Source: a virus
Taxonomy: Duplodnaviria > Heunggongvirae > Uroviricota > Caudoviricetes
DNA: 64,000 bases
IMG/VR virus record: IMGVR_UViG_3300045049_000270
Strand: one strand, 5' to 3'
Below the pieces are notes generated by a model. That model had not been told where the DNA came from, searched no databases, and saw only the letters and a list, made by a program, of their open reading frames with translations. Shown here in pieces: positions 23,643 through 36,474 of the stretch. Within the stretch, counting starts at the first letter, position 1; each line of letters begins with the position of its first letter. The translations under genes and the position numbers were made by a program.

Positions 23643-23985
23643 TTTGCTAAATATAATGTGAACACGCTGTAGGAAACGGCAGCGTTTGTTTAGCAAGTGG
23701 CAAGAAAGTTAGAAAAAGTTGTTGACTTCAGCCAGTTTGCTAAATAGAATTAGAAAACGTTGTAGTTAACAGTTGGTGGCGAATCCTTACGCCCTTGTTA
23801 CTTGGACGTTGCAGTGATAACGAAACGCTGCTCATGGTGGAAGTAGAAACAGGGTTAAGTGAAGTCCTCCACCCGACTTTGCTAAATAGAATTGTAGTTG
23901 TAGAGTGTTGTTTTTCTGCAACAAGTAAGTGTTGGTGGGTTAACAAAAAGTTTGTTGACTTGCCGTTGTAGTAGATGTAGAGTAC
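23643..23985 (+). promoter_or_regulatory. promoter cluster upstream of the tRNA operon
   Basis: three TTTGCTAAATA copies and TTGAC-type -35 boxes (e.g. TTGACT ~23955 .. TAGAGT). Confidence 0.6.
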
Positions 23986-24038
23986 GTAACATGCTGTGAT
24001 GAACACAGCGTAATGATTAACTCCTATTTGAGGGAAAA

Positions 24039-24188
24039 ATGCAAACTTCGTTTAACTTTTATCGACCAGAGCAGCAGCAAGGACATTGCTTGTCCATGCC
24101 CGCAGCAACATGGCTCGGTAATGGTAATCGCGAAGTGAAAAGCATTAGTCTGTCAGATAGTAAGGGGTGCCAAGGGGGTAGCGCATAA
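24039..24188 (+). CDS. leader peptide (49 aa, contains all 20 amino acids)
   Basis: GAGG SD; MQTSFNFYRPEQQQGHCLSMPAATWLGNGNREVKSISLSDSKGCQGGSA*. Confidence 0.7.
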   Translation: MQTSFNFYRPEQQQGHCLSMPAATWLGNGNREVKSISLSDSKGCQGGSA

Positions 24189-24251
24189 TAAGCGCAACCC
24201 TTAAATTACAAGGCACCCCGGTAAACGAAAGTTTCCGGGGTTTCGTGTTTT
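24164..24251 (+). terminator. attenuator: antiterminator 24164-71/24212-19 versus terminator 24216-40 plus U-rich tail
   Basis: GGGGTGCC/GGCACCCC overlaps the 5' arm of CCCCGG-T-AAAC-GAAA-GTTT-CCGGGG-TTTCGTGTTTT. Confidence 0.8.
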
Positions 24252-24280
24252 AGAGCACCAATGTTCTTTGTAGTACGTGT

Positions 24281-24517
24281 GGATGGGAAACGAGATCCCT
24301 GGCGAGCACGTAAAACACAAGCTAAATGGGCGGCGGCGAGGATGAAGGTTCGTTTGCGAGCGAACGTATAAAATTCGTCAGTCTAGGGCAATTAGGCCTA
24401 GACACAACTGCATAACGCAGTAGCATGAAGTTGATGTTGTCCGTTATGCAGATGCTTACTAAGTTGGGCGTGGCTCAAAACCACGTGCGTTGAAAAAGCG
24501 TAACCAACTTAGTAAGC
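24281..24517 (+). ncRNA. structured RNA directly after the attenuator
   Basis: helices 24381-87/24397-403, 24408-17/24442-51, 24454-67/24504-17. Confidence 0.55.
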
Positions 24518-24523
24518 GCTTGT

Positions 24524-24597
24524 TGGGGGATAGTGTAATGGTAGCACCCATGACTTTGACTCATGTAGCCTAGGTTCGAGCCCTAGTCCCTCAGCCA
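24524..24597 (+). tRNA. tRNA-Gln(TTG)
   Basis: cloverleaf, CT-TTG-AC, CCA. Confidence 0.92.
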
Positions 24598-24603
24598 GAA
24601 TAT

Positions 24604-24693
24604 GGAGGCGTGGCAGAGTGGTTTATTGCACCGGTCTTGAAAACCGACGAGTTTTAAAAAGCTCCGTGAGTTCGAATCTCACCGCCTCCGCCA
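24604..24693 (+). tRNA. tRNA-Ser(TGA)
   Basis: class II cloverleaf, CT-TGA-AA. Confidence 0.92.
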
Positions 24694-24758
24694 GTAATAA
24701 AGATGAAACGAGAGGATAACAGCTATAAAGGCACTTGCGTTTCATTTGTAAGTTTTAT

Positions 24759-24843
24759 GGGGTAGCGGTCAAGTTGGAGAGTGGCGGCGGACTGTAAATC
24801 CGTTCCTTCGGGTGAGTTGGTTCGAATCCATCCTACCCCACCA
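24759..24843 (+). tRNA. tRNA-Tyr(GTA)
   Basis: class II, CT-GTA-AA, CCA. Confidence 0.9.
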
Positions 24844-24863
24844 TAATTAAAGGAGATAATGCA

Positions 24864-25040
24864 ATGAATATTATGTCTAGTATCAAGAAAATGTGGCAAG
24901 ATGTTAAAGAGTTTATGAATTCCACAGTGCCACCTGAAGCATTTCAAAATGCTTATGATCCTGAACATAATAGTCAAAAGCATGTTTCGGATTATGAACA
25001 CCCAGATATGCGCAATGCGCCGGGTGGTTATGATTATTAA
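24864..25040 (+). CDS. small hypothetical protein
   Basis: AAGGAG upstream, 58 aa. Confidence 0.5.
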   Translation: MNIMSSIKKMWQDVKEFMNSTVPPEAFQNAYDPEHNSQKHVSDYEHPDMRNAPGGYDY

Positions 25041-25050
25041 GATTCAGTAG

Positions 25051-25202
25051 TTTGCTTTAATCATCCGCACTGCGTTGGTTTTTGACCGATACGCAGAAGA
25101 AGACTGCTACAAGCAGGGTAAATCCAGTGTGTGCCTGTTGAATGCGCCTAAATGTTCGAGGATAAAAAGGTGGTTCGATCCCACCCGGATGAGCAAAGCA
25201 AA
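25051..25202 (+). ncRNA. tRNA-like RNA (acceptor and T arm only, non-tRNA body, extended stem)
   Basis: TCATCCG/CGGATGA with GGTGG-TTCGATC-CCACC; flanking TTTGCTTT/AAAGCAAA; no CCA. Confidence 0.55.
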
Positions 25203-25220
25203 TTGCGATAAAGTTTCAAT

Positions 25221-25308
25221 GGAGAGTGTTCCTGTCAGCGGATTGTAAACCCGTTACCATGATAGACAGGTGGTTGGTTATTAGGTTCGATTCCTTCACT
25301 CTTCACCA
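25221..25308 (+). ncRNA. D-armless Tyr(GTA)-like tRNA
   Basis: acceptor GGAGAGT/ACTCTTC-A-CCA, loop TT-GTA-AA, no D hairpin. Confidence 0.6.
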
Positions 25309-25316
25309 AGTTTTAC

Positions 25317-25472
25317 GGAGATATAGGGCACTGGGAAGCCCAGCAGCAGCATAGGCTGCCGTTGAAAGCAATAGCATTCCGACGTGTGACAGTTGACCAT
25401 GGATAGCACTGTTGCATAGAACAGGGATTGAGCAAGTAGGCTAGTTTGGTTCGATTCCAAATGTCTCCACCA
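25317..25472 (+). ncRNA. tRNA-like RNA with ~85-nt variable region
   Basis: acceptor GGAGATA/TGTCTCC-A-CCA, D arm, GCAGC-AGCATAG-GCTGC arm, T arm. Confidence 0.7.
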
Positions 25473-25548
25473 TCTACTACACATGCCCCGTTAAGACGGG
25501 CACGCATGTTAAGGCATGCGTAAGGTTCTCAGCCGGGTATGTGTTTTT

Positions 25549-25623
25549 GGCCTTGTCTTATATTGGTTATTATCCTAGACTGTCTATCTGGGGAACGGAG
25601 TTCGATTCTCCGCAGGGTCGCCA
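25549..25623 (+). tRNA. tRNA-Asp(GTC)
   Basis: CT-GTC-TA, G73, CCA. Confidence 0.88.
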
Positions 25624-25696
25624 AGTTTAATAGTAGCGGTTGGGTTAAACGTTTGACGATTCGCGCAAGCCAATCCAAAGCGTCCAATTCGCTTAT

Positions 25697-25772
25697 CTCC
25701 CCGTAGTGTTAGCGGCAAGCACACGTGATTTGGGATCATGAAGCGACAGTTCGAGTCTGTCCGGGGTGACCA
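25697..25772 (+). tRNA. tRNA-Pro(TGG)
   Basis: TT-TGG-GA, CCA. Confidence 0.88.
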
Positions 25773-25790
25773 AGTTTTGTTTTACATGAT

Positions 25791-25866
25791 GGGTCCTTAG
25801 TTCAATGGAGAGAATCTCGTGCTACGAACGCGAGGATGGTGTGTTCGATTCACCCAGGACCCTCCA
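25791..25866 (+). tRNA. tRNA-Arg(ACG)
   Basis: CT-ACG-AA, CCA. Confidence 0.88.
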
Positions 25867-25875
25867 AGTTTCATC

Positions 25876-25951
25876 GCCTCGTTAACTCAGCGGCTAGAGT
25901 GCTCGACTGTCTATCGGGAAGTCAGGGGTTCGAACCCCCTACGGGGCGCCA
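25876..25951 (+). tRNA. tRNA-Asp(GTC)
   Basis: CT-GTC-TA, CCA. Confidence 0.92.
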
Positions 25952-26076
25952 GTTTTAAATTACTTGGTGCTATGAGTAGCGAACATAGCATTGTTTCTCA
26001 GTGAAACAGACGCTTGCGTCTCAAGGTGGAATGCAGGGGGTGCGACCTTCGCATAGAAAAACGCACAACAAATTCT

Positions 26077-26153
26077 GGGGGAACATGTACCAAGAGTGGC
26101 GAGATGCACTTGCAATGCGTCTGTGGTGGGTTTGATTCCCACTTTCTCCACCA
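26077..26153 (+). tRNA. tRNA-Ala(TGC)
   Basis: G3.U70, CT-TGC-AA; atypical D arm. Confidence 0.85.
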
Positions 26154-26163
26154 GATTTACAAT

Positions 26164-26239
26164 GTCGTGTTCGTCTAAAGGTAAGGACGGTGGCCTTTCA
26201 AGCCGCAAATGTAGGGTTCAAGTCCCACACACGACTCCA
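26164..26239 (+). tRNA. tRNA-Glu(TTC)
   Basis: CT-TTC-AA, CCA. Confidence 0.88.
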
Positions 26240-26249
26240 AAATTCCAAT

Positions 26250-26325
26250 GCCGTTCAAGCTAACCTGGTGGAAGCGCGGGACTGAAAATCCTGAGGGCGC
26301 GGTTCGATCCCGCGGGGCGGCACCA
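26250..26325 (+). tRNA. tRNA-Phe(GAA)
   Basis: CT-GAA-AA, CCA. Confidence 0.92.
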
Positions 26326-26333
26326 CAAGTTTT

Positions 26334-26421
26334 GAAGTGTCCCTGTGAGGTGGCAAGATAGTCCATAGCGCTTGACGTTATGTTGACGCTTGAGATGGAG
26401 AAGGCGCCGACCATCCACTTC
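26334..26421 (+). ncRNA. small structured RNA sharing the GATAGT(GT)CCATAG motif
   Basis: GAAGTG/CACTTC closing stem, TCCAT/ATGGA helix, U-rich tail. Confidence 0.5.
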
Positions 26422-26439
26422 TTTTTGTTTTTTGACTGT

Positions 26440-26515
26440 TCCGCTCTCGTATTCTCGGTGAGTACCCCCGGCTGTTAACCGGATGAGGTTGGTTCGAATC
26501 CAACGGGCGGAGCCA
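26440..26515 (+). tRNA. tRNA-Asn(GTT)
   Basis: CT-GTT-AA, G73, CCA. Confidence 0.88.
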
Positions 26516-26525
26516 AGTTTATTGG

Positions 26526-27152
26526 CTATAGTCGTTTGACTGTAGTATCTGGTTTGATGCTTGTAGTTAAATTGCCTAGTTGATTAACGATCTCACTTAA
26601 TGTGATTGATCGATCAATGGTGGTTGCGCTAATGATAAAGCGAGTGGTTTCGATGTTTGAAACACCGTGTAAGCGTGCGGTATCAAACAGACACCAGTTA
26701 TTTGCTTCTTGAATATATGATTCCGAAATTTCAAAAGAATCATGTATGGCTTGTTGATCTCGTTGCTCTTCTGTAGGAGCTATAAACCAAGTCTCAACTT
26801 GAGAACCACCAGGTTCAAGTAAAAAATTGAACGCCACATTGCGTTTTCGATCATAATGCGGTACAATGTAAGCAGTGCTGTTTGGATTTTGGTTTGCTAT
26901 CACCGAGAGTGAATAGCACATAGGCCATGGCATAGAATCGAGTATGGCATCAACTTCCGGGAAAATACCTGAACATTGAGGGAAGTTTAGAAACAGAGCA
27001 ATATTTGCTCCTTCTCGATAATTCCAAGGTAGGATGAACGTTGAATTGTCCTTGTTTGTCTTATAAAGAAATTCAAGTTTACCAATAATCTCATTGCTCG
27101 TTTCTGGCGAAATAGTTGGTAAATATAGCTTGTACATGCTCATCGGTATCAT
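26526..27152 (-). CDS. 2OG-Fe(II) oxygenase-like (double-stranded beta-helix) protein
   Basis: IVPHYD HxD motif, distal FDTARLHGV, AT-rich; only credible minus-strand gene in the window. Confidence 0.7.
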   Translation of the reverse strand: MIPMSMYKLYLPTISPETSNEIIGKLEFLYKTNKDNSTFILPWNYREGANIALFLNFPQCSGIFPEVDAILDSMPWPMCYSLSVIANQNPNSTAYIVPHYDRKRNVAFNFLLEPGGSQVETWFIAPTEEQRDQQAIHDSFEISESYIQEANNWCLFDTARLHGVSNIETTRFIISATTIDRSITLSEIVNQLGNLTTSIKPDTTVKRL

Positions 27153-27196
27153 CCTTAAAGAGATATTGATATTTAGTGGTGAGCATTAATGGTTTT

Positions 27197-27245
27197 GGAT
27201 GCCTACAGCAACTTAAATTTTCTTGGTGAAAACGAAAGTGCATCC
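27197..27245 (+). ncRNA. mini Y-RNA-like stem
   Basis: GGATGCCTACAGCAA..GCATCC. Confidence 0.65.
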
Positions 27246-27334
27246 AGTTGTTTTTCAGGGTGAATGATAGACTGGCGTCGTGGAACTCGAGGCTCACCCT
27301 TTTCATGTTTTAGGATGTTTACAGCATCATCAAT

Positions 27335-27409
27335 TCCGGAGTAGCACAGCGGTAGTGCAGCGCACTGTTAATGCGCGGGTCGCTGGTTCGATCCCAGCCT
27401 CCGGAGCCA
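27335..27409 (+). tRNA. tRNA-Asn(GTT)
   Basis: CT-GTT-AA, CCA. Confidence 0.92.
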
Positions 27410-27428
27410 TTTATGTACATCCTGTTAT

Positions 27429-27503
27429 CGCTACGTCGTTCAACGGCTAGGACACTTGTTTCATACGCAGGTTATGGTGGTTCGATTCCACCCGTAGCGA
27501 CCA
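27429..27503 (+). tRNA. tRNA-Met/Ile2(CAT)
   Basis: TT-CAT-AC; identity (Met versus lysidine Ile2) not resolved. Confidence 0.8.
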
Positions 27504-27513
27504 AGATTTCAAT

Positions 27514-27588
27514 ACCTGATTAGCTCAATGGCTAGAGCACTCGACTGATAATCGGGCGACAGTGGTTCGATTCCACTATTAGGTACCA
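27514..27588 (+). tRNA. tRNA-Ile(GAT)
   Basis: CT-GAT-AA, CCA. Confidence 0.92.
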
Positions 27589-27636
27589 CTTTTAAATTGT
27601 GTTGTATGCCAAACGCTGTACAATACGAGGAAATTG

Positions 27637-27798
27637 ATGCAACAAGAACGATACTTCTGCAAGACACGCAGACGCAACAGTAAGTGGAAGCGTGCTGATG
27701 AATTACTTTACCGTATCCGTGACATACATGGGCCACGTAAAGCGTATAACCGTCGAGTAGAAGCATTCTACAGATTGCTTGAACGACGTGGTGAATAA
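27637..27798 (+). CDS. small basic hypothetical protein
   Basis: GAGG SD, 53 aa, R/K-rich. Confidence 0.55.
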   Translation: MQQERYFCKTRRRNSKWKRADELLYRIRDIHGPRKAYNRRVEAFYRLLERRGE

Positions 27799-27859
27799 AT
27801 TTGTGTTGCATTGTACAGCGAAAGGTGTATAATGTGGCAAACTGTTAGCGTAAGCTGAT

Positions 27860-28005
27860 GGGCTGTAACAGAGCCAATATGTACCAGTAGTATGCTACGT
27901 TTTATTGGTGACAGACTTGGTTACAGTTAGGGACGTAGCTCCTCGTTCATTATGTGGAAATGTAAAGCGCTGCATGATGACTTGTGCGAACGCAACGAGT
28001 GCTTT
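27860..28005 (+). ncRNA. pseudoknotted RNA, unassigned
   Basis: CTGTAAC/GTTACAG, CCAATA/TATTGG, loop GCTACGT pairs with downstream ACGTAGC; own TTGCAT..TATAAT promoter. Confidence 0.5.
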
Positions 28006-28013
28006 CAATATAT

Positions 28014-28089
28014 TGCCGGTTAGCTCAGTGGTAGCAGCAGCGTCTTGATAAGGCGAAGGTCATTGGTTCAAATCCAATACCGGCAACCA
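28014..28089 (+). tRNA. tRNA-Ile(GAT)
   Basis: TT-GAT-AA, CCA. Confidence 0.88.
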
Positions 28090-28109
28090 GAATTCTCGCT
28101 TTCGACGAT

Positions 28110-28185
28110 TGCGGGGGAGTGAAACGGTTTACACGTCGGTCTCATAAGCCGAAGACATCAGGTTCGACTCCTGCTCCCCGCAACC
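28110..28185 (+). tRNA. tRNA-Met(CAT), initiator-like
   Basis: TCGGT-CT-CAT-AA-GCCGA, 5' TGCGGGG. Confidence 0.85.
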
Positions 28186-28231
28186 AGTGAACATTTTTGC
28201 ACATCAACTATAATAACTAAGTGAAACGAAT

Positions 28232-28360
28232 ATGTGGTCATTTGTTCTCGGTATTATCAAAGCGGTCGTAATTGACATCGTGAAAGGCATTGTAGTTGAT
28301 GCTGTCAAGCGTTCAATTGCACGCAGAACGACATACCGTCGTTCAATGCAATTTGCATAA
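28232..28360 (+). CDS. small amphipathic peptide
   Basis: 42 aa MWSFVLGIIKAVVIDIVKGIVVDAVKR..; TATAAT upstream. Confidence 0.45.
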   Translation: MWSFVLGIIKAVVIDIVKGIVVDAVKRSIARRTTYRRSMQFA

Positions 28361-28457
28361 AAGTGTTTCAATACAACGGTCGTCCTACCATAGCAATTCT
28401 GGGCGGCACACACCACTTCTCCTACCATAGCAGTGCTGGGGATGCGTTGTATTCATT

Positions 28458-28540
28458 GCCCGATTGGCGAAATTGGCATACGCGCTGGATTTAGGTTCCA
28501 GTCCTTCGGGGTGAGGGTTCGAGTCCCTTGTCGGGCACCA
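28458..28540 (+). tRNA. tRNA-Leu(TAG)
   Basis: class II, TT-TAG-GT. Confidence 0.92.
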
Positions 28541-28685
28541 GATTTTTGTCAGCTCACATAAAACTAGCTGTTCAACGTGTGTGTGTGGTGCAAAACCACG
28601 GGGGTCTGTAAAAGGGCTCCTGATCAGCAAGCTGACATCTTTTTGCACGTGGCGCGATATACGCAGCCTGTGCTTTTTTACAAAT

Positions 28686-28770
28686 GCCTCGGTGGCGGAA
28701 GTGGTAGACGCGCTGGACTCAAAATCCAGTTCCGAAAGGAGTGTCGGTTCGAGTCCGACCCGAGGTACCA
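28686..28770 (+). tRNA. tRNA-Leu(CAA)
   Basis: class II, CT-CAA-AA. Confidence 0.92.
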
Positions 28771-28780
28771 AGTTTTCAAT

Positions 28781-28857
28781 TGCGGAAGAGTGAAACGGTT
28801 TACATACCAGTCTCATAAGCTGGTGACAATGGGTTCGACTCCCAATTTCCGCATCCA
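28781..28857 (+). tRNA. tRNA-Met(CAT)
   Basis: CT-CAT-AA; paralog of 28110. Confidence 0.85.
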
Positions 28858-28862
28858 ATATT

Positions 28863-29133
28863 TGTCGCGGAGCAGTTAGATTCCGACGTCCGCAACCAGT
28901 AACCGAGTAGTGCTTGAACCAGTTCATGGGGTATTAACATGAACGCGTAGTTTAGCGATAGAAGCTGTCGCATTCTGCGTGGCATTACTCACCAGTTTAA
29001 ACCGACCTAGGCGACAGCTTAGAACTCGTGCTAGTCAAACATGATCTACGCTGTCATGATTAAATGTTTGTGTTCATAGCACTGTCCTCCGTGACATAGG
29101 TCGACACGGAGCTGAGTAGGAAAACCTCAGCAC
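28863..29133 (+). ncRNA. multi-pseudoknot RNA, unassigned
   Basis: 28905-13/28982-90 crosses 28962-71/29011-20; 29004-09 complementary to 29097-102. Confidence 0.65.
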
Positions 29134-29164
29134 ATTTAATTTAACTTTCTCAGGAGAGACTGTC

Positions 29165-29209
29165 ATGTCAAGTGCCAAATCTGGCAAACCTGAGGGGGTT
29201 GGGAAGTAA
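29165..29209 (+). CDS. leader peptide MSSAKSGKPEGVGK
   Basis: CAGGAG SD 8 nt upstream; three Lys codons; overlaps a switch helix. Confidence 0.6.
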   Translation: MSSAKSGKPEGVGK

Positions 29210-29257
29210 ATTCTCATACCCCCTTAGGCGAATTTGTAGTAACCCTAAGGGGGTATG
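29189..29257 (+). promoter_or_regulatory. three-segment RNA switch masking the tRNA-Lys 5' end
   Basis: B 29215-28 is the perfect 14-nt complement of C 29244-57 and an alternative partner of A 29189-205. Confidence 0.75.
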
Positions 29258-29325
29258 GTGTTAGCGGTTAGCACAGCGGACTTTTAATCCGTCAGGCTTG
29301 GGTTCGAATCCCAGTGCCCCCACCA
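29249..29325 (+). tRNA. tRNA-Lys(TTT)
   Basis: CT-TTT-AA, CCA. Confidence 0.92.
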
Positions 29326-29333
29326 ATTTCCAC

Positions 29334-29470
29334 AAGTATCATTCGATGTGGTTAACCTGATCACCCACGGTAAGTAAAAGTGCATGACGCCTACTCAGCG
29401 TTATATGTGCAAGTAGCTTCAGCATCGTGATCAACAGGTGATGTGATGGAGATCACATCGAATGATATTT
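29334..29470 (+). ncRNA. structured RNA between the two Lys tRNAs
   Basis: 17-bp stem 29334-50/29454-70 (one G.U) with nested helices. Confidence 0.5.
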
Positions 29471-29473
29471 AAT

Positions 29474-29549
29474 GGGGTCATGGTGTCAATGGTTAGCACA
29501 GCGGACTCTTAATCCGTTTGTCTCAGTTCGAATCTGAGTGGCCCTACCA
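29474..29549 (+). tRNA. tRNA-Lys(CTT)
   Basis: CT-CTT-AA, CCA. Confidence 0.92.
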
Positions 29550-29561
29550 ATTTCAATAACA

Positions 29562-29828
29562 ATGACATTCGACATTAAACTTTCAGCAGCTGGTAAACTA
29601 CGTGATGAAATATTGGCGCGCCTAAAGACTTGCGACAGTGAAGCGTTAGTAGCTGAGAATGTAAGGTTTAACGGTCATACCTGTTCGCCTGCAATTATTG
29701 GTTTAGGATTCTCAACTGAGCAAGAACGTCTTGCTTTTTTGTTGGAATTCAAGGATCGGCTTTTAGTTTGCGAGCCAACTGATAAACAGTTCAAGTGGGG
29801 GTTTGACCCCGATGATATAGATTTTTGA
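29562..29828 (+). CDS. hypothetical protein
   Basis: ATG 29562 (the track start overlaps the tRNA). Confidence 0.6.
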   Translation: MTFDIKLSAAGKLRDEILARLKTCDSEALVAENVRFNGHTCSPAIIGLGFSTEQERLAFLLEFKDRLLVCEPTDKQFKWGFDPDDIDF

Positions 29829-29844
29829 AGTACCAAGTTTCAAC

Positions 29845-29919
29845 AGGGGATTAGTTCAATGGCTAGAATATCGGTCTCCAAATCCGCAGACGTGGGTTCG
29901 ATTCCTACATCCCCTGCCA
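29845..29919 (+). tRNA. tRNA-Trp(CCA)
   Basis: CT-CCA-AA, G73. Confidence 0.88.
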
Positions 29920-30239
29920 GTTTTAGTTGCAAAACGACAATAGAGTAGTAGAATAGTTTGCATAGTAATTAGCGTCAGGAAGTGGTCGGACGCTTTTGCA
30001 CTGCAAGTGGTAAAGCCCTTGTTCACGTGGGATAGGTGAGTGTGGACAGTGTATCACACAGAAGTTAAGTCGCTTACAAGTATCGGGAACCCCCGACGCG
30101 CCTCCCACTTCTAGGCAAGGTTGGTCGTGAGAGCGAATGGAAGAGTGGATTGATCACCACTTGGCGTCCATTCTCCACTGCGTTAATGTGCAAACCTGGT
30201 GTTAATTGCTATTCGAATCAATAACAATAACAACTGAAT

Positions 30240-30774
30240 ATGAAAACTTCTGAAACATGGTGGCAAGCCAGTTAAAGCAGATGAAACACTTTTGAAAGAT
30301 TGGTTGCTGAAGCAATGGCGTGGTGAAGTAACAGCCTCAAATCGCATTGTACGGTTTGCAGAGCAATATGCAAGCGATCAACATCAAGTAAAGGTGTTGA
30401 ATGCGATTGCAGCACAAGAACGCCAGCATGCTGAATGGGTTGAGCAATTGCTCCTCTCGCGTGGTATTGAAGTTGATGCAGGTCAGATTGATCAAGCAGA
30501 GCAACGTTATTGGAAAGAAACGTTGCATGGTATCACAGATTTCGAAACCGGATCAGCAGTAGCAGCGCATGCTGAAGGTATGCGACTTGAACGGATCCGT
30601 GTTATCGCAGCTGATGAGCAAGCACCTGCTGATATTCGTAGTGTGTTTGAACGTATTTTGAAGGACGAAGAATGGCATGAGCGCGCTTTTAGCGAATTGT
30701 CTAGTCCAGTAGCACTGGCAGCAACGCAAGCTAACCATGAGGCTGGTTTGCAGGCTCTAGGGCTTGTAGCATAA
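30240..30774 (+). CDS. ferritin-like di-iron protein, apparently +1 frameshifted near the N-terminus
   Basis: QERQH and DEEWH ExxH motifs; ATG 30240 frame stops at 30275, main frame open from 30271. Confidence 0.75.
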
Positions 30775-30782
30775 GTTTCTGT

Positions 30783-30806
30783 TCCGATGTAGCTCAGCGG
30801 TAGAGC
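30783..30806 (+). pseudogene. orphan tRNA 5' fragment (acceptor strand and D arm)
   Basis: TCCGATGTAGCTCAGCGGTAGAGC with no matching 3' half. Confidence 0.55.
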
Positions 30807-30830
30807 TATATGATTTAGAGTGTGTTTTGC

Positions 30831-30909
30831 TCCGCGAAACCCGAGCTTGGTGCATGGGCCTGACTGTTAATCAGTGGCTAGGTGAGTTCGATCCTCACAC
30901 GCGGAGCAA
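30831..30909 (+). tRNA. tRNA-Asn(GTT)-like, no CCA, inside a 19-bp inverted repeat
   Basis: CT-GTT-AA, T arm; inverted repeat 30818-36/30900-18. Confidence 0.65.
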
Positions 30910-30936
30910 AACACATTCATTTTAGACCCAGTTTTT

Positions 30937-30985
30937 GGAAGCCTACAGCAATCACATTCATTTTCCAACATGACCATGTGCTTCC
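30937..30985 (+). ncRNA. mini Y-RNA-like stem
   Basis: GGAAGCCTACAGCAA..GCTTCC. Confidence 0.65.
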
Positions 30986-30995
30986 AGTCAGTTTT

Positions 30996-31056
30996 GGATA
31001 GTTGCAGCAAACTTAAAAACATCAAACCGTTAATTTGACTCGTTAAAAAGCTATCC
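30996..31056 (+). ncRNA. mini Y-RNA-like stem
   Basis: GGATAGTTGCAGCAA..CTATCC. Confidence 0.65.
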
Positions 31057-31067
31057 AGTTTTACAAT

Positions 31068-31142
31068 GCGGGCAGAGTTTTGTTGGTAAAACGACAGCTT
31101 GCCATGCTGTAGTCCCGGGTTCGAAACCCGGTGCCCGCTCCA
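31068..31142 (+). tRNA. tRNA-Gly(GCC)
   Basis: TT-GCC-AT, U73. Confidence 0.9.
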
Positions 31143-31194
31143 GTGACAAAAATGCACACCATTAGCTAAATACTCCAAAAGGAGTATTGGCAAG

Positions 31195-31911
31195 ATGCGT
31201 CGTGCATATAGAAGAAAATACCATTACATTTACAAGACAACTTGCACTGTAACTGGTAAGTATTATATCGGAATGCACTCCACAGATGATCTAGATGATG
31301 GTTATGTGGGTTCTGGTAAGCGCTTGGGTTATTCAATTCGCAAATATGGTAAAGAAAACCATAAATGTGAAATTATAGAGCATTTACCAGATCGCGAAAG
31401 TTTACGTAAACGCGAAAGTGAGTTAGTATGTGAAGATAAACTAACCGACCCACTTTGCATGAACTTGAAGTTAGGTGGTGATGGTGGTTTTGATCACATT
31501 CTGCATCATGAAGACCAACGTGAATGGGCAAAAGCAGGACGAGCACAGACTACAGAAATTCTACTTGGACGTGGTATTACGCAAGCTGATTTAAGCAAAC
31601 GCGGAATTGATTCTGCAAGAAAGCAGAAAAAGAACGTTGCGTTTGATCCTGAATTACAATTGAAATACAGCTTCGCACATAACAAAGAGTTGCAGCAAGC
31701 TGGTAATTCACCAGAGGCTAGAGCAAAAGCTTCTGAATCGTTAAAGCGATATCACGAACTGCATAAACCACAGTTAGGTGATAATAATTCACAATACGGC
31801 ACTTGCTGGGTGCATTCGTTGACTGAGAAAAAGTCGATGAAAATATCCAAAGCTGACCTAGAAGCACATTTAGCGCTCGGTTGGCAAGCAGGGCGTAAGA
31901 TGAAGTTTTAA
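31195..31911 (+). mobile_element. GIY-YIG (Seg-like) homing endonuclease
   Basis: HYIYKTTC..GKYYIGMHST..GYVGSG; free-standing within the tRNA array. Confidence 0.88.
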
Positions 31912-31913
31912 AT

Positions 31914-32006
31914 GGTGGGGTGGTGTAACGGTAGCACGACGAGATTTATAACCTCGATTCGCTAGATAGGCGGTTAGCATGGGTTCGAATCCCATCCCCA
32001 CTACCA
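31914..32006 (+). tRNA. atypical tRNA, probable TAT anticodon, long variable arm
   Basis: acceptor, D and T arms intact; CGAG-A-TT-TAT-AA-C-CTCG; CCA. Confidence 0.65.
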
Positions 32007-32012
32007 AGTTTT

Positions 32013-32059
32013 GAATGCCTACAGCACTTTAAATCATTGGCATATGAAAAAACGCATCC
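32013..32059 (+). ncRNA. degenerate mini Y-RNA-like stem
   Basis: GAATGCCTACAGCAC..GCATCC. Confidence 0.5.
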
Positions 32060-32079
32060 AGTCAAAGAACAAATACTAC

Positions 32080-32259
32080 ATGAAAGCCGATGGATATTGG
32101 AATCATCGTAGTCCCATAAAGCTTATAATCAACCCCATTCTGCGCAAGCTGCAATGGTTCACTCAGCGCCCTTACGTGATTGCTAGTGAAACCAAGTTTG
32201 TAGATGGTAAGCCAGAGTTTATTGCTTATAAGTTTTGTCGCGTGTTTCACGCAAAATGA
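32080..32259 (+). CDS. small hypothetical protein
   Basis: ATG 32080, 59 aa. Confidence 0.55.
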   Translation: MKADGYWNHRSPIKLIINPILRKLQWFTQRPYVIASETKFVDGKPEFIAYKFCRVFHAK

Positions 32260-32265
32260 TTTAAT

Positions 32266-32341
32266 GCTGGTGTAGCTCAGCTGGTAGAGTTGCTGCCTTC
32301 CAAGCAGTATGTCGAGGGTTCGAATCCCTTCTCCCGCTCCA
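32266..32341 (+). tRNA. tRNA-Gly(TCC), two acceptor mismatches
   Basis: CT-TCC-AA; GCTGGTG versus CTCCCGC. Confidence 0.75.
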
Positions 32342-32406
32342 ATGAATGTGTCTTGACTAACACCACAAATGGCCTCATCATATAAGCAAATGAAAAAGGA
32401 AGACTC

Positions 32407-32820
32407 ATGAAAGCTGATAGTTTGTATGATCGACCTGTTGTGGTAAACCTTCAAGAAGATGAAGGTACAGTTGAAGGCTACGTTGTAAATAGCAATGCTG
32501 TCCAGATAGTTAATTGGTTTTCAAAGCATGGTATTGATAATGACGCGTTGATCGCCGAAATTCGTGCAAAGTATCCGCGCATTGCAATGTTGAATAATGT
32601 CAACGTATACGATGAATTCAAAGGTCAAGGCTACGGAAATTTCCTACTTGGTCGTTTTATAGACGACGTTGGATATGAAGATGCAAAGGCTATTTTGTTG
32701 ATAGCCGATACTGCTGAATCACAAGCTGAAGGTTTTGATCTTGTGCAGTGGTATGCAAAGAATGGTTTTGCAGTGCTTCATCAAACGGGCGGCGGCCCTT
32801 TGATGTTGAAAGAACTGTAA
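32407..32820 (+). CDS. GNAT acetyltransferase-like protein
   Basis: VNVYDEFKGQGYGNFLL acetyl-CoA motif, LVQWYAKNGF. Confidence 0.8.
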   Translation: MKADSLYDRPVVVNLQEDEGTVEGYVVNSNAVQIVNWFSKHGIDNDALIAEIRAKYPRIAMLNNVNVYDEFKGQGYGNFLLGRFIDDVGYEDAKAILLIADTAESQAEGFDLVQWYAKNGFAVLHQTGGGPLMLKEL

Positions 32821-32863
32821 TTTGTCTTGACTGATGCTGCAAATGACATAATCATATGGTTAT

Positions 32864-33090
32864 GGGTCGGTGGCTGAGAGGAAAAGCACTCCTAAAATGA
32901 AAGGAGATCCGGTAAAACGGGTTCCATTCGCAAGTCACACATAACGCACGGTTGCAGAAGCACCTATAGCGGCCTCGAAAGAGGTGGCATCTAAACAGCA
33001 AGGGAAGCGCGTTTCCAAGTTATGTGTGGGCCTGGAGTAATGCCCAGGTAAGCGGAAACTACGCGGGTTCAATTCCCGTCCGATCCACCA
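32864..33090 (+). ncRNA. 227-nt tRNA-like/tmRNA-like RNA with Ala identity
   Basis: GGGTCGG/CCGATCC-A-CCA (G3.U70); D arm; GCGGGTTCAATTCCCG T arm; internal CACACATAAC/GTTATGTGTG helix. Confidence 0.8.
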
Positions 33091-33171
33091 ATTTACGTTT
33101 AAAGGGAAGCAACTATTCGTTATTACACACGAAACAAAAAGGGAACGATGCTACATCTTCTAGAAGAGGAC

Positions 33172-33468
33172 ATGAAAAGAGCACAGACCCAGATACAGTT
33201 CATCAACCACGAACAAAAGTTTGTGGGCCCAATTCATCCGGGTTACGATTACACGTATGATGACTTGATGCTATGGTATTGGGAATCCTGCAATGGGCTT
33301 CCAAAAACAGGCGTAGTTCGTGGTAAATGGAGTAGCGCTTCACAAGCAACCTTTAGAGTTCTAGCACAAGATTTATCGAATAAAGCTCAGGTGGTTGGTG
33401 TTGAATGCTTTAATGTTGCAAAACAGTTTAAAACCTTTGATGAATTCAAAACTTTCATCAAAAGTTAA
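33172..33468 (+). CDS. hypothetical protein
   Basis: GAGG SD. Confidence 0.6.
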   Translation: MKRAQTQIQFINHEQKFVGPIHPGYDYTYDDLMLWYWESCNGLPKTGVVRGKWSSASQATFRVLAQDLSNKAQVVGVECFNVAKQFKTFDEFKTFIKS

Positions 33469-33477
33469 AGTTTCAAT

Positions 33478-33555
33478 GCCCAGGTGGCCGAGAGGTCCAA
33501 GGCGACTGCCTGCAAAGCAGTAAAACCGCTGGTTCGAATCCAGCCCTGGGCTCCA
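33478..33555 (+). tRNA. tRNA-Cys(GCA)
   Basis: CT-GCA-AA, U73. Confidence 0.9.
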
Positions 33556-33565
33556 GCTTTACCAT

Positions 33566-33659
33566 AGAGAGTTACCCAAGAGGTTCAAGGGGGCGTCCTG
33601 CTAAGACGTTAGGGTGGTGATAAACTGCCGCATGGGTTCGAATCCCATACTCTCTGCCA
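33566..33659 (+). tRNA. tRNA-Ser(GCT)
   Basis: class II, CT-GCT-AA. Confidence 0.9.
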
Positions 33660-33678
33660 GATATAATCGAGACCCAAA

Positions 33679-33891
33679 ATGGGAAGACGTTTAACACAAG
33701 TTGATATGGCAGCAGCACGCTATGAAGAGGAAGTTTTCAATTCTCGTTTGAAGCGTGGAGAAGTGAAAGAAGCAGACAAGATTCGTCGCACGTTTCATGT
33801 TATTTGTGGTTGTGGCGTTGAAGGTTGTATGTTCATGTCTCATATTCGTGAGCGTGACGATCAAAGCAACACGCCCAATCCAACGTTTTAA
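33679..33891 (+). CDS. small Cys/His protein
   Basis: 70 aa with HVICGCGVEGC. Confidence 0.65.
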   Translation: MGRRLTQVDMAAARYEEEVFNSRLKRGEVKEADKIRRTFHVICGCGVEGCMFMSHIRERDDQSNTPNPTF

Positions 33892-33892
33892 T

Positions 33893-33993
33893 GCCGAGAG
33901 AGTCCAGTAGGCTGCTGGTACGAATCAATAAGAGTTGGTCTTCTGGTGACCCAGGTCCAACCCGCTGCGGTTCGATTCCGTGACTCGGCTCCA
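33893..33993 (+). ncRNA. tRNA-like RNA without a paired anticodon stem
   Basis: GCCGAG/CTCGGC-T-CCA, T arm, long internal hairpin. Confidence 0.6.
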
Positions 33994-34003
33994 GTTTCGT
34001 ATA

Positions 34004-34273
34004 ACTTGATACGGGATGTAGGGATAGTAGCACCCATCATTTAAAGAGTAGGGCGTTGGACGTGGGAGAGCAGTAAAATTAGGGTACTTGCCCCAGAAAC
34101 CTAATTTCCACCTCAAACGAACTCACAGCAGTATAGTGAGAGACGAGGGGATGGTTGCTTTGAGTACCGTGGCAAGCGTTTTGCAACAGCGGAGATCCAA
34201 CGTGCATTCCATACTAGGAGTTGGGTTTTAGTCTGCATGAGCACCTTTTGGCGTAACAGCACACCATTCAAGT
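34004..34273 (+). ncRNA. 23S rRNA H43-H44 (L11/GTPase centre) mimic with ~200-nt insert
   Basis: GGATGTAGGGATAGTAGCACCCATCATTTAAAGA .. GCGTAACAGCACAC aligns gaplessly to the 1055-1088 and 1091-1104 segments of E. coli 23S as I recall them. Confidence 0.85.
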
Positions 34274-34286
34274 ATATGAAATTTAT

Positions 34287-34378
34287 GGTAGGGTGGCAGA
34301 GTCCGGATTATTGCTCCAGCCTCGAAAACTGGCGAGTCCTAAAAAGCTCCGTGGGTTCAAATCCCACCCCTACCGCCA
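34287..34378 (+). tRNA. tRNA-Ser(CGA)
   Basis: class II, CT-CGA-AA. Confidence 0.9.
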
Positions 34379-34521
34379 ATTGCAATGCCAGGCACGGATA
34401 TTACGACCGCCTGTGAAGAATCTATGTAATGCGCTTCTGTTCGTTTGAGAGCAGATGAACAATAGCAGGTATTGATTCACAGTGACAATGAATATATCAT
34501 ATGGCTAATATTGGAGGCCAT

Positions 34522-34704
34522 ATGAGACAAGACATAGTAAACCTGATTCATCAGTGCGTGGATAAGCAAGCTAAAGTATCAGCTGAATATGGTGTTACAT
34601 ACAACCAAGCTGATCGAACACGCAAGTTCAATGAGTTGAAAAATCAATTCATAGCTGGTGAAATCACTCGTGAAACCCTCGTTGAATACCTCAACGAAGA
34701 ATAA
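34522..34704 (+). CDS. small hypothetical protein
   Basis: GGAGG SD. Confidence 0.6.
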   Translation: MRQDIVNLIHQCVDKQAKVSAEYGVTYNQADRTRKFNELKNQFIAGEITRETLVEYLNEE

Positions 34705-34733
34705 CTTTTAACCATTTTCTCAAGGAGAGCATT

Positions 34734-34880
34734 ATGTTTACGACGCTGACATTCGCGCACGTTACCGCATTACCACAGCATACGCTCGCTCTGGCTCTCC
34801 CTGAGCATATGTCCACACTTGAAGTCTCCCCTGAGACTTGTGTCTTGACGCGTGAAGAGGGTTTCGCTGTACACTCGTAA
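34734..34880 (+). CDS. candidate leader peptide (48 aa, Thr/Leu/Ala/Glu-rich)
   Basis: AAGGAG SD in the same TTTCTCA(A)GGAGAG context as the Lys leader. Confidence 0.5.
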   Translation: MFTTLTFAHVTALPQHTLALALPEHMSTLEVSPETCVLTREEGFAVHS

Positions 34881-34918
34881 TCGCCTTTCTTCGTGGCTTG
34901 GCGATTTGAAAAGAATAT

Positions 34919-35009
34919 AGTGGGATGGCTGAGCGGTTTAAGGCGCCTGGTTGGAAGCCGGGAGGGTCTGTAAATGGCCCCAGGAGTTCGAATCTCCTTC
35001 CCACTGCCA
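34919..35009 (+). tRNA. tRNA-Ser(GGA)
   Basis: class II, TT-GGA-AG. Confidence 0.9.
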
Positions 35010-35021
35010 GTTGTGCTCGTA

Positions 35022-35138
35022 GGTTGATTTCAGCAAATTTATTTTAATCATCTGAGAAATGAAAGGTCCAGGTTCGAACCCTGGCGGAGGAGATGAGCCC
35101 CTCTGTGGTGTAATTGGATAGCACTTAAAATATCAACC
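35022..35138 (+). ncRNA. YrlA-type Y RNA
   Basis: GGTTGATTTCAGCAA..ATCAACC; T arm, closed acceptor CGGAGG/CCTCTG, D arm. Confidence 0.8.
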
Positions 35139-35144
35139 AGTTTT

Positions 35145-35220
35145 GTCGGTATAGTTTAATGGTTAGAATAGCGGACCTTCAATCCGCGGATCGCGAGTTC
35201 GATTCTCCGTACCGACGCCA
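35145..35220 (+). tRNA. tRNA-Glu(TTC) with C33
   Basis: GCGGA-CC-TTC-AA-TCCGC, G73. Confidence 0.75.
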
Positions 35221-35222
35221 TC

Positions 35223-35296
35223 GCCCTTTTAGTTTAATGGTAGAACACCGGTTTTGTACTCCGGAAATGTGAGTTCGATTCTCACTTAGGGCTCCA
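35223..35296 (+). tRNA. tRNA-Thr(TGT)-like, weak stems
   Basis: TT-TGT-AC; U.U mismatches; U73. Confidence 0.65.
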
Positions 35297-35304
35297 GAAT
35301 TCAT

Positions 35305-35378
35305 GTGTCGTTCGTCTATCGATAGGACATCACCCTTTCACGGTGAGAAGACGGGTTTGACTCCCGTACGGCACGCCA
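35305..35378 (+). tRNA. tRNA-Glu(TTC)
   Basis: CT-TTC-AC. Confidence 0.9.
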
Positions 35379-35386
35379 AGTTTTAT

Positions 35387-35460
35387 GCCCCATTAGTTTA
35401 ATGGTAGAATACCTGTTTCGTAGTCAGGTGATGGTGGTTCAATTCCGCCATGGGGCACCA
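35387..35460 (+). tRNA. tRNA-Thr(CGT)
   Basis: TT-CGT-AG. Confidence 0.85.
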
Positions 35461-35468
35461 GTTTCAAT

Positions 35469-35543: not shown

Positions 35544-35560
35544 GTTTTGCTTGATGCAGA

Positions 35561-35914: not shown

Positions 35915-35920
35915 AATACC

Positions 35921-36473: not shown

Positions 36474-36474
36474 C

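What the first reader, a model, noticed from the sequence alone, without database searches (positions are those of the whole stretch)
24030..24251. All-20-amino-acid leader peptide plus attenuator gating the tRNA operon (candidate pan-tRNA depletion sensor)
Seen: a SD-led 49-codon ORF whose first 40 codons contain all 20 amino acids, including single W, H, Y, V, I, K and D. GGGGTGCC (24164-71, codons 42-45) pairs with GGCACCCC (24212-19) around a hairpin holding the stop codon. That partner overlaps the 5' arm of a strong intrinsic terminator (24216-40 plus TTTCGTGTTTT). The two folds are mutually exclusive. About 14 kb of tRNA and ncRNA genes follows. Knowledge: this is the geometry of ribosome-dependent transcription attenuation (trp/his type), which normally senses one amino acid via tandem codons. 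Inference: completed translation covers the antiterminator arm and terminates. Stalling at almost any codon (tRNA cleavage by host anticodon nucleases, or starvation) lets transcription read through, so the full tRNA set is induced only when host translation is damaged.
Basis: partly seen in the sequence, partly recalled or inferred. Interest (0 to 1): 0.9.

Follow-up and report, generated by a model that had tools for sequence, protein, structure and literature searches.

The report
Leader-peptide attenuator gating megaphage tRNA array
A roughly 524-kb soil phage and seven related lineages place a small translated "test" gene, wired to a stop/go RNA switch, in front of their large tRNA gene cluster, so the phage probably makes its tRNAs mainly when ribosomes fall behind; the idea that the test gene was built to hold all 20 amino acids is not upheld.

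Summary

Seven further lineages were recovered from metagenomes. All keep the promoter, SD, ATG and an in-frame ORF of 42-57 codons. All keep both mutually exclusive helices, each with compensatory changes. All are followed by tRNA-Gln(UUG), Ser(UGA), Tyr(GUA) and more. The two folds are within 3 kcal/mol of each other in every homolog, and the antiterminator is the predicted fold at the moment its 3' arm emerges. This is therefore very probably a ribosome-dependent transcription attenuator. It reads through by default and terminates only when a ribosome follows the polymerase closely through the leader.

The "all 20 amino acids" part is weak:
- Thr is missing in 5 of 8 lineages.
- Only 16-19 amino acids lie in the part of the ORF where stalling could act.
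- Having all 20 in a 49-mer has a 2-4% chance.

I read it as a general translation-lag sensor, not a designed pan-tRNA sensor. I found no published attenuator in front of tRNA genes. Earlier notes of this scan describe comparable leaders in other giant phages, and the G001 copy of this one.

The parts
23955..23983 (+). Sigma-70-type promoter (TTGACT, 17 nt, TAGAGT); the transcript would start near 23990
   Evidence: The -35 TTGAC is invariant in the homologs.
23993..24009 (+). 5'-terminal stem-loop of the leader transcript (GCTGTG / CACAGC)
   Evidence: Read. A hairpin sits at the same place in every homolog with a different stem sequence. Its role is inferred (5'-end protection).
24030..24033 (+). 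Shine-Dalgarno GAGG, 5 nt before the ATG
   Evidence: TTTGAGG is conserved in 7 of 8 lineages and reads TTAGAGG in L020.
24039..24188 (+). Leader ORF, 49 codons, stop TAA followed by a second TAA
   Evidence: The ORF is kept at 42-57 codons in 8 lineages. The ATG-to-arm distance takes six different lengths, all equal modulo 3. The other two frames hold 1-9 stops. Only 5 sequence relatives (window's own peptide included) were found among 5.8 billion proteins and no Pfam family.
24059..24121 (+). Conserved long hairpin inside the ORF (codons 7-28): outer helix 24059-65 with 24115-21, apical hairpin GGAC 24081-84 with GTCC 24092-95
   Evidence: RNAalifold. The apical helix changes from GGAC/GTCC to GAGC/GCTC, two pairs with compensatory changes. 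Its role as a pause or coupling hairpin is inferred.
24164..24171 (+). Antiterminator 5' arm (A), GGGGTGCC, codons 42-45
24174..24202 (+). Inner hairpin holding the stop codon (24186-88)
   Evidence: Every homolog has a hairpin of different sequence here with the stop codon in or beside its loop.
24212..24219 (+). Antiterminator 3' arm (B), GGCACCCC; its last four bases are the first four of the terminator stem
   Evidence: 95.8% of cells paired and 3 of 8 pairs with compensatory change.
24216..24251 (+). Intrinsic terminator: stem 24216-40 (10 bp, one bulge, GAAA loop) and the invariant tract TTTCGTGTTTT at 24241-51
   Evidence: 94.4% of cells paired and 3 pairs with compensatory change. Energies.
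24253..24259 (+). Second copy of the B motif (GAGCACC) just after the terminator; it can pair with arm A only in read-through transcripts
   Evidence: It appears in the MFE and in the +60 folds. It is present in 6 of 8 lineages. Role unknown.
24262..24412 (+). Highly conserved structured non-coding spacer between the terminator and the first tRNA
   Evidence: Homologs differ by 1-nt indels, so it is not coding. No Rfam match.
24524..37906 (+). Dense tRNA array (43 tRNA genes) starting Gln(UUG), Ser(UGA), Tyr(GUA)
   Evidence: The same first three tRNAs follow the leader in every lineage.

Best explanation
This is a ribosome-dependent (leader-peptide) transcription attenuator placed between early sigma-70-type promoters and the phage's tRNA array.

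Shown: a conserved translated-looking leader ORF; two conserved, covarying, mutually exclusive helices of nearly equal stability; and conserved spacing of arm A, stop codon and arm B.

Inferred mechanism. As host RNA polymerase transcribes arm B, arm A is already available, so the antiterminator A:B forms first and polymerase reads through into the tRNA genes. This is the default state. If the first ribosome follows the polymerase closely, it is unwinding or covering arm A and the inner hairpin (codons 39 to the stop) when B emerges. B then pairs with the 3' arm of the terminator and transcription ends at about 24246-51.

The element would therefore measure the accumulated lag of the lead ribosome over about 32-44 codons that use 16-19 different amino acids. 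Shortage or cleavage of almost any tRNA, amino-acid starvation, or a general slowing of translation would raise tRNA transcription, and restored translation would lower it. That is a feedback on translational capacity.

The near-complete amino-acid alphabet is most simply a by-product of a long, compositionally unbiased leader whose sequence is largely dictated by RNA structure. For example, the Cys codon lies inside arm A, and the Trp codons lie inside helices.
For: Comparative evidence:
- Eight lineages keep the promoter, SD, ATG and an ORF of 42-57 codons.
- The ATG-to-arm-A distance is 107, 116, 125, 131, 137 or 143 nt, always 2 modulo 3. The non-coding spacer downstream has 1-nt indels.
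- The antiterminator is 95.8% paired with 3 compensatory pairs, against 32-56% paired when the partner is slid by 1-3 columns.
- The terminator is 94.4% paired with 3 compensatory pairs.
- The shared base 24219 changes C to T together with its terminator partner (G to A in L004 and L020). It also stays paired with its antiterminator partner (G to A in L004, G-U in L020).

Folding and geometry:
- The two conformers differ by 3 kcal/mol or less in all nine sequences.
- In all six sequences folded stepwise (of the nine), A:B is the minimum-energy fold when B has just been made. In 5 of the 6 it still is when the terminator stem is complete.
- The stop codon lies 8-26 nt after A and 17-25 nt before B in all, so a terminating ribosome blocks the A:B enclosure but leaves the terminator free.

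Context:
- The leader is always followed by tRNA-Gln, Ser, Tyr and more.
- There is no strong promoter between the terminator and the first tRNA.
- In relative G001 there is no convincing internal + strand terminator in 11 kb holding 44 tRNAs.
- Leader-peptide attenuators that respond to general ribosome stalling are established for bmrCD and vmlR (PMC13689557).
Against: - There is no expression data: no RNA run was listed, so neither the 3' end nor translation of the ORF has been seen.
- The U-tract is interrupted (7 U in 11).
- In 5 of 8 lineages a ribosome at the stop codon would not physically cover arm A (gap 20-26 nt). There the effect must come from occupying the enclosed loop and from timing.
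- No anti-antiterminator was found, so untranslated transcripts should read through. That is unlike trp-type attenuators and makes the OFF state depend wholly on tight coupling.
- The invariant N-terminal codons (AAC, TAT CGA CCA, CAG CAR) suggest something more specific than a general sensor.
- The window has two candidate internal terminators (29718, 36681) and possible internal promoters, so control of the distal array is uncertain.
Confidence: 0.7

Rival explanations
1. One reading: the same attenuator, but its leader is selected to contain every amino acid. Loss of any single tRNA species (through anticodon nucleases or starvation) would then induce the full replacement tRNA set.
For: - All eight lineages hold 19 or 20 different amino acids in 42-57 residues, against an expected 17-18.
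- The rare residues His, Trp and Cys are always present but sit at different alignment columns in different lineages.
- The array behind the leader encodes tRNAs for all 20 amino acids.
- Thr, the only residue ever missing, has a tRNA(UGU) gene with its own promoter outside the gated array (19495).
Against: - Thr is absent in 5 of 8 lineages.
- Within the codons where stalling can free arm A, only 16-19 amino acids are present, and none of the leaders has all 20 there.
- P(19 or more) is 0.10-0.39 per peptide, and the lineages share ancestry.
- The Cys and Trp codons lie inside conserved RNA helices, so RNA structure can explain their presence.
- Most amino acids occur as a single codon, which gives weak sensitivity to partial depletion.
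Confidence: 0.15
2. A codon-matched feedback attenuator: the conserved N-terminal codons (Ser, Phe, Asn, Tyr, Arg, Pro, Glu, Gln-Gln) are the control codons and report the supply of the tRNAs encoded first in the array (Gln, Ser, Tyr, Asp, Pro, Arg, Asn and others). Earlier notes of this scan propose this for other giant phages.
For: - AAC, TAT, CGA, CCA and CAG-CAR are invariant at the nucleotide level in all lineages, including at synonymous sites.
- Tandem Gln codons are present in all lineages, and tRNA-Gln(UUG) is always the first gene.
- Residues 2-14 are enriched for the amino acids of the first seven tRNAs in the window and G001 (8 of 13, P about 0.02).
Against: - The enrichment is not significant in the other four lineages tested (P 0.08-0.27 for residues 2-14).
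- The same invariant nucleotides form the 5' strand of the conserved internal hairpin, so structure alone can explain their conservation.
- The test was devised after seeing the data.
Confidence: 0.1
3. An ordinary small protein gene with its own terminator; the alternative pairing is incidental or stabilises the mRNA 3' end.
For: The N-terminal 13 residues are well conserved. Gene callers predicted the ORF in several metagenomes.
Against: - Both exclusive helices covary and are nearly equal in energy in all homologs.
- The C-terminal half varies freely in length and sequence while keeping RNA arms and hairpins in place.
- No protein family was found.
- The unit is always positioned directly ahead of the tRNA array.
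Confidence: 0.03
4. A ribosome-independent riboswitch or RNA-binding switch (ligand, protein or tRNA binding to the conserved 5' hairpin domain) selects between the two folds, and the ORF is irrelevant.
For: The internal hairpin domain is strongly conserved at the nucleotide level. The whole leader folds much better than shuffles.
Against: - Reading-frame conservation across six indel lengths, the conserved SD and ATG, and the constrained stop-codon position would all be unexplained.
- There is no Rfam family, T-box included, even at E up to 10.
Confidence: 0.02

Closest known systems
Classical leader-peptide attenuators of enterobacterial amino-acid operons (trpL, hisL, pheL, thrL; multivalent ilvGMEDA and ilvBN leaders); textbook knowledge
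   Same: An SD-led short ORF. A terminator and an antiterminator that share a strand. The position of the ribosome on the leader decides the fold. The stop codon is placed so that a terminating ribosome blocks the antiterminator but not the terminator.
   Different: The regulated genes are tRNAs, not biosynthetic enzymes. The leader is 42-57 codons rather than 14-32. It has no run of one amino acid (only Gln-Gln or Gln-Gln-Gln). No 1:2-type anti-antiterminator overlaps arm A, so the predicted state without translation is read-through rather than super-attenuation. It is phage-encoded.
Ribosome-mediated attenuators that respond to general ribosome stalling: Bacillus subtilis bmrCD (leader bmrB) and vmlR (PMC13689557; PMC9226507)
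   Same: A longer leader peptide, and read-through induced by slowed or stalled translation at many possible codons rather than by one amino acid.
   Different: Those elements have an anti-antiterminator and terminate by default. They control antibiotic-resistance genes and are induced by drugs. The present element has no sequence similarity to them.
pyrBI attenuator of E. coli (textbook knowledge)
   Same: It reads the distance between RNA polymerase and the lead ribosome, not a specific amino acid.
   Different: The logic is opposite. In pyrBI a closely following ribosome prevents the terminator hairpin. Here close following is predicted to favour the terminator.
T-box riboswitches
   Same: They couple tRNA status to transcription read-through by way of an antiterminator and a terminator.
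   Different: T-boxes bind uncharged tRNA directly and need no ORF. No T-box or other Rfam match was found here.
Leader-peptide attenuators ahead of tRNA arrays in other giant phages (unpublished AI notes of this scan) and the G001 copy of this element (e1-5420610)
   Same: The same order of parts: promoter, SD, mini-ORF, terminator with alternative pairing, tRNA block.
   Different: Those leaders are reported as short and spelled in the amino acids of the block that follows. This family is long and compositionally broad, its codon match to the first tRNAs is weak, and it heads an array covering all 20 amino acids.

Membership tests
Ribosome-mediated (leader-peptide) transcription attenuator | Short ORF with SD and start codon in the 5' leader, conserved as a reading frame | tested here: met
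   SD, ATG and an ORF of 42-57 codons are present in 8 lineages. Six different lengths are all in frame, and the other frames are closed.
Ribosome-mediated (leader-peptide) transcription attenuator | Intrinsic terminator (GC-rich hairpin plus U-tract) between the leader ORF and the regulated genes | tested here: met
   A 10-bp stem and TTTCGTGTTTT, with the helix supported by 3 compensatory pairs. Termination activity itself was not tested.
Ribosome-mediated (leader-peptide) transcription attenuator | Antiterminator helix that is mutually exclusive with the terminator | tested here: met
   The 8-bp A:B helix shares 4 nt with the terminator stem, is 95.8% paired with 3 compensatory pairs, and its energy is within 3 kcal/mol of the terminator fold.
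Ribosome-mediated (leader-peptide) transcription attenuator | One antiterminator strand lies in or next to the ORF, so ribosome position selects the fold | tested here: met
   Arm A lies in codons 42-45 and is read in the same frame in all lineages. The stop codon is 8-26 nt after A and 17-25 nt before B.
Ribosome-mediated (leader-peptide) transcription attenuator | Read-through changes with translation of the leader (functional proof) | not testable with these tools
   No RNA run was listed. Reporter or Term-seq experiments are needed.
trp/his-type amino-acid attenuator | Tandem control codons for the sensed amino acid | tested here: not met
   Only Gln-Gln(-Gln) is repeated. The leader uses 19-20 amino acids, mostly once or twice each.
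trp/his-type amino-acid attenuator | Anti-antiterminator (1:2) hairpin that shares a strand with the antiterminator, giving termination without translation | tested here: not met
   The conserved internal hairpin (24059-24121) ends about 40 nt before arm A and does not overlap it. Stepwise folds give A:B as soon as B exists.
   Three lineages hold 20 of 20 and five hold 19 of 20 (no Thr). Only 16-19 fall within the sensing codons.
Codon-matched tRNA-array leader (earlier notes of this scan) | Leader composition enriched for the amino acids of the tRNAs immediately downstream | tested here: inconclusive
   P is about 0.02 in the window and G001 for residues 2-14, and 0.08-0.27 in the four other lineages tested.
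T-box riboswitch | Match to the T-box covariance model (specifier loop, T-box sequence) | tested here: not met
   No Rfam match at the gathering threshold, or at E up to 10, in 23600-24540.

The most novel reading that the evidence does not exclude
The near-complete amino-acid alphabet of the leader is itself under selection, so the element is a true pan-tRNA integrity sensor. The phage holds back a full replacement tRNA set and releases it when any host tRNA species is depleted or cleaved by a defence nuclease. Thr is exempt because tRNA-Thr(UGU) is made constitutively from its own promoter outside the gated array.
Probability: 0.15. Interest if true: 0.9.

Novelty: new variant of a known kind. 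Interest (0 to 1): 0.72.

Why it matters
tRNA genes are textbook examples of promoter-level (growth-rate, stringent) control, and attenuation is known for amino-acid, pyrimidine, synthetase and resistance genes. I found no published attenuator in front of tRNA genes, in phages or in cells.

If this element works as its anatomy predicts, huge phages do not merely carry tRNAs. They regulate them by a feedback that reads how well ribosomes keep up with transcription. That bears directly on why large phages hoard tRNAs: codon supply, host shut-off, or escape from tRNA-targeting defences.

The element is compact (about 260 nt) and uses sigma-70 signals. It makes sharp, unusual predictions, for example that removing the start codon should switch it ON. 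It can therefore be tested in ordinary reporter assays without culturing the phage.

Tried and rejected
Searches for known families and near relatives:
- Rfam at the gathering and E-value thresholds: only tRNAs, nothing on the leader or the spacer.
- INPHARED phages by DNA: only tRNA-level matches.
- The neighbouring 342-aa protein finds only 35%-identical cyanophage genes.
- Pfam on the leader peptide: no family.

Collection scans:
- IMG/VR scans with five patterns and one protein found only the single relative G001.
- Two metagenome-contig scans found nothing.
- The genome-contig scan gave three chance matches with no leader anatomy: two Acidobacteriota MAG contigs and one Pseudoalteromonas chromosome.

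Expression: no RNA holder was listed for this DNA.

How the homologs were found: synteny through the 342-aa neighbour did not lead directly to leaders, because its relatives sit in other contexts. Three of those contigs happened to contain the leader further downstream. The peptide profile searches added L010-L025.

Readings rejected:
- A 36-codon ORF right after the terminator (24261-24371) is not conserved; G001 has a 1-nt insertion there.
- A 5'-UTR segment (ACTCC, 24020-24) acting as anti-antiterminator: it forms only 5 weak long-range pairs and is displaced as soon as B is made.
- Codon matching to the first tRNAs: tested and inconclusive.

Full report
**What the window is.** The window carries 50 tRNA genes, 43 of them in a dense + strand array at 24524-37906. 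Its own contig is 523,572 bp. It recurs in soil and rhizosphere DNA runs. The only close relative in IMG/VR is a 523,836-bp contig with terminal repeats, called G001 here (loci L001 and L002). Genes upstream include an FtsH-like AAA/M41 protease and a 342-aa protein of no known family. This is a huge soil phage.

**Checking the observation.**
- GAGG at 24030-33 lies 5 nt before the ATG at 24039.
- The ORF has 49 codons and ends TAA TAA at 24186-91.
- All 20 amino acids occur in the first 40 codons.
- GGGGTGCC at 24164-71 is complementary to GGCACCCC at 24212-19.
- Between them sits a hairpin (24174-24202) with the stop codon in its loop.
- The terminator stem at 24216-40 has 10 bp, one bulged T and a GAAA loop. 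It is followed by TTTCGTGTTTT.
- A sigma-70-type promoter (TTGACT, 17 nt, TAGAGT; 23955-83) precedes the unit.
- The leader folds far better than shuffled sequence (z = -6.9).
- Having all 20 amino acids has about a 1% chance within 40 residues, and a 2-4% chance within 49.

**Homologs.** G001 has the same unit at about 85% DNA identity, while the neighbouring protein is only 64% identical. Three contigs fetched through paralogs of that neighbouring protein turned out to hold the leader further downstream (L003, L004, L007). A profile of the peptides found more in 5.8 billion and 1.8 billion protein sets: L010-L019, L020, L021-L024 and L025. Together these make eight lineages, with peptide identities of 30-80% to the window.

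In every lineage the unit is followed by tRNA-Gln(UUG), Ser(UGA), Tyr(GUA) and further tRNAs. The sequence between them is either a structured spacer or, in L021-24, a T5orf172-type endonuclease gene.

**Is the ORF real?**
- The -35 box, the SD (TTTGAGG) and the ATG are conserved.
- ORF length ranges from 42 to 57 codons.
- The distance from the ATG to arm A takes six values (107-143 nt), all equal modulo 3. Arm A is always read as Gly-Cys or Gly-Arg.
- The other two frames hold 1-2 and 5-9 stops.
- The spacer after the terminator is at least as conserved but carries 1-nt indels, and a 36-codon ORF there is broken in G001.
- The first 13 residues (F/Y-N-x-Y-R-P-x-Q-Q) are conserved. The rest varies freely.

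I take translation of the ORF as well supported by comparison, though it has not been observed.

**Is the switch real?** On an alignment of nine sequences the arms are in register.
- Antiterminator: 95.8% of cells pair, and 3 of 8 pairs show changes on both sides. Sliding the partner by 1-3 columns drops pairing to 32-56%.
- Terminator: 94.4% of cells pair, with 3 compensatory pairs, including CCCCGG/CCGGGG changing to CCCTGG/CCAGGG and a replaced upper stem in L021.
- The base shared by both helices (24219) changes C to T in L004 and L020. Its terminator partner follows in both (G to A). Its antiterminator partner follows in L004 (G to A) and tolerates it as G-U in L020. This is what a switch predicts.
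- The inner hairpin has a different sequence in each lineage but is always present, with the stop codon in or next to its loop.
- With either helix enforced, the two conformers differ by at most 3 kcal/mol in all nine sequences.

**Which state is the default?** I folded growing transcripts from the predicted start in six lineages. In all six, A:B is the minimum-energy fold as soon as B exists. In five of six it persists when the terminator stem is complete. Equilibrium then tips towards the terminator in most of them.

No upstream strand competes seriously for arm A. The conserved internal hairpin (24059-24121; two compensatory pairs in its apical helix) ends about 40 nt before A. Without a ribosome the element should therefore read through.

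The stop codon lies 8-26 nt after A and 17-25 nt before B in all lineages. A ribosome in the last codons, or at the stop, melts A and the inner hairpin and occupies the enclosed loop, yet leaves the terminator free.

My inference is that termination needs a lead ribosome following the polymerase closely. Any accumulated lag over the first 32-44 codons lets A:B form and opens the array. The internal hairpin may be a pause element that synchronises the two machines; this is conjecture.

**The all-20 claim.**
- Leaders hold 20 (window, L004, L025) or 19 (the other five lineages) amino acids. The missing one is always Thr.
- The expected diversity is 17-18. P(19 or more) is 0.10-0.39 per peptide, and the lineages are not independent.
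- In the codons where an empty A-site leaves arm A fully free, the count is 16-19. In the window the single Asp codon falls outside that range.
- The Cys codon is part of arm A and the Trp codons lie in helices, so RNA structure explains some of the rare residues.
- His is always present but sits at five different columns. This is suggestive, but expected in about one case in five.

Strict completeness is therefore not a conserved property, and selection for breadth is unproven. Even so, a 40-codon leader that uses nearly the whole alphabet will in practice respond to the loss of almost any tRNA.

**The codon-matching lead.** Earlier notes of this scan describe leaders in other giant phages that are spelled in the amino acids of the tRNA block that follows them. 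I tested this here. Residues 2-14 are enriched for the amino acids of the first seven tRNAs in the window and G001 (8 of 13, P about 0.02). They are not enriched in the other four lineages tested. The invariant codons also form one strand of the conserved hairpin. The result is inconclusive.

**Scope of control.**
- No strong promoter lies between the terminator and the first tRNA.
- G001 has no convincing + strand terminator within its 11-kb, 44-tRNA array.
- The window has two candidates (29718, 36681) that lie in stretches G001 lacks.
- Possible internal promoters exist in both.

The attenuator probably gates most transcription entering the array, but the distal part may have other inputs.

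**Comparison with known systems.** The parts list matches ribosome-mediated attenuation. It differs from the trp/his type in three ways: the length of the leader, the lack of control-codon runs, and the lack of an anti-antiterminator. It resembles the bmrCD and vmlR leaders in sensing general stalling, but those terminate by default. It resembles pyrBI in reading ribosome-polymerase distance, but with the opposite outcome. It is not a T-box. I found no paper describing attenuation of tRNA genes. Another first-stage note of this scan describes the G001 copy (e1-5420610).

**Verdict.** The attenuator reading is strongly supported by comparative evidence. The "designed pan-tRNA sensor" reading is not supported as stated. 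The element is a new variant of a known kind of regulator, applied to an unexpected target.

Noticed in passing
window 24262-24412 (also L002:3084-3245, L004:6118-6275, L007:12747-12905, L020:283-425): A non-coding block between the terminator and the first tRNA is more conserved than the leader ORF, including an invariant GGGCGGCGGCGAGGATGAAG. It has a conserved fold with a covarying hairpin. It has no Rfam match, and other sequence replaces it in L010, L021-24 and L025.
   Followed up: partly
window 19462-19568; L003:387-461; L004:932-1007; L007:4136-4211: A tRNA-Thr(UGU) gene sits several kb upstream of the leader, outside the gated array. In the window it lies directly behind its own early-type promoter motif (TTGCTAAATAGAAA). 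Thr is the only amino acid ever missing from the leaders. This may be coincidence.
   Followed up: partly
window 23539-23892: Tandem sigma-70-type promoters share the extended -10 motif TTGCTAAATAGAAT (23644, 23737, 23879; also 19462). They are conserved in G001. A 38-codon ORF (23556-23672) and a terminator-like hairpin (23664-85) lie between them. The window has a stretch of about 130 nt (23786-23912) that G001 lacks.
   Followed up: partly
window 24253-24259: A second copy of the B motif (GAGCACC) lies right after the U-tract and can pair with arm A in read-through transcripts. It appears to covary with arm A in L004 (GGCG). Function unknown.
   Followed up: partly
window 22502-23530: A 342-aa protein with no Pfam family has at least 148 relatives in metagenomes. 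Its paralogs in related phages sit next to FtsH-like and SIR2 genes. A 35%-identical gene is annotated 'anti-CRISPR protein' in Planktothrix phage Pag-Yong1.
   Followed up: partly
L021:3330-4028, L023:3217-4011: A T5orf172/MUG113-type endonuclease gene is inserted between the attenuator terminator and the tRNA array in one lineage. It would therefore be transcribed only on read-through.
   Followed up: no
window 29718-29746 and 36681-36716: Two strong terminator-like hairpins lie inside the tRNA array, in stretches that relative G001 lacks. They could split the window's array into separate transcription units.
   Followed up: partly
window 29150-29325: A first-stage note of this scan (e1-5421252) reports a 14-codon Lys-rich leader next to tRNA-Lys(UUU) inside the same array. 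If real, the array has a second, amino-acid-specific control point.
   Followed up: no
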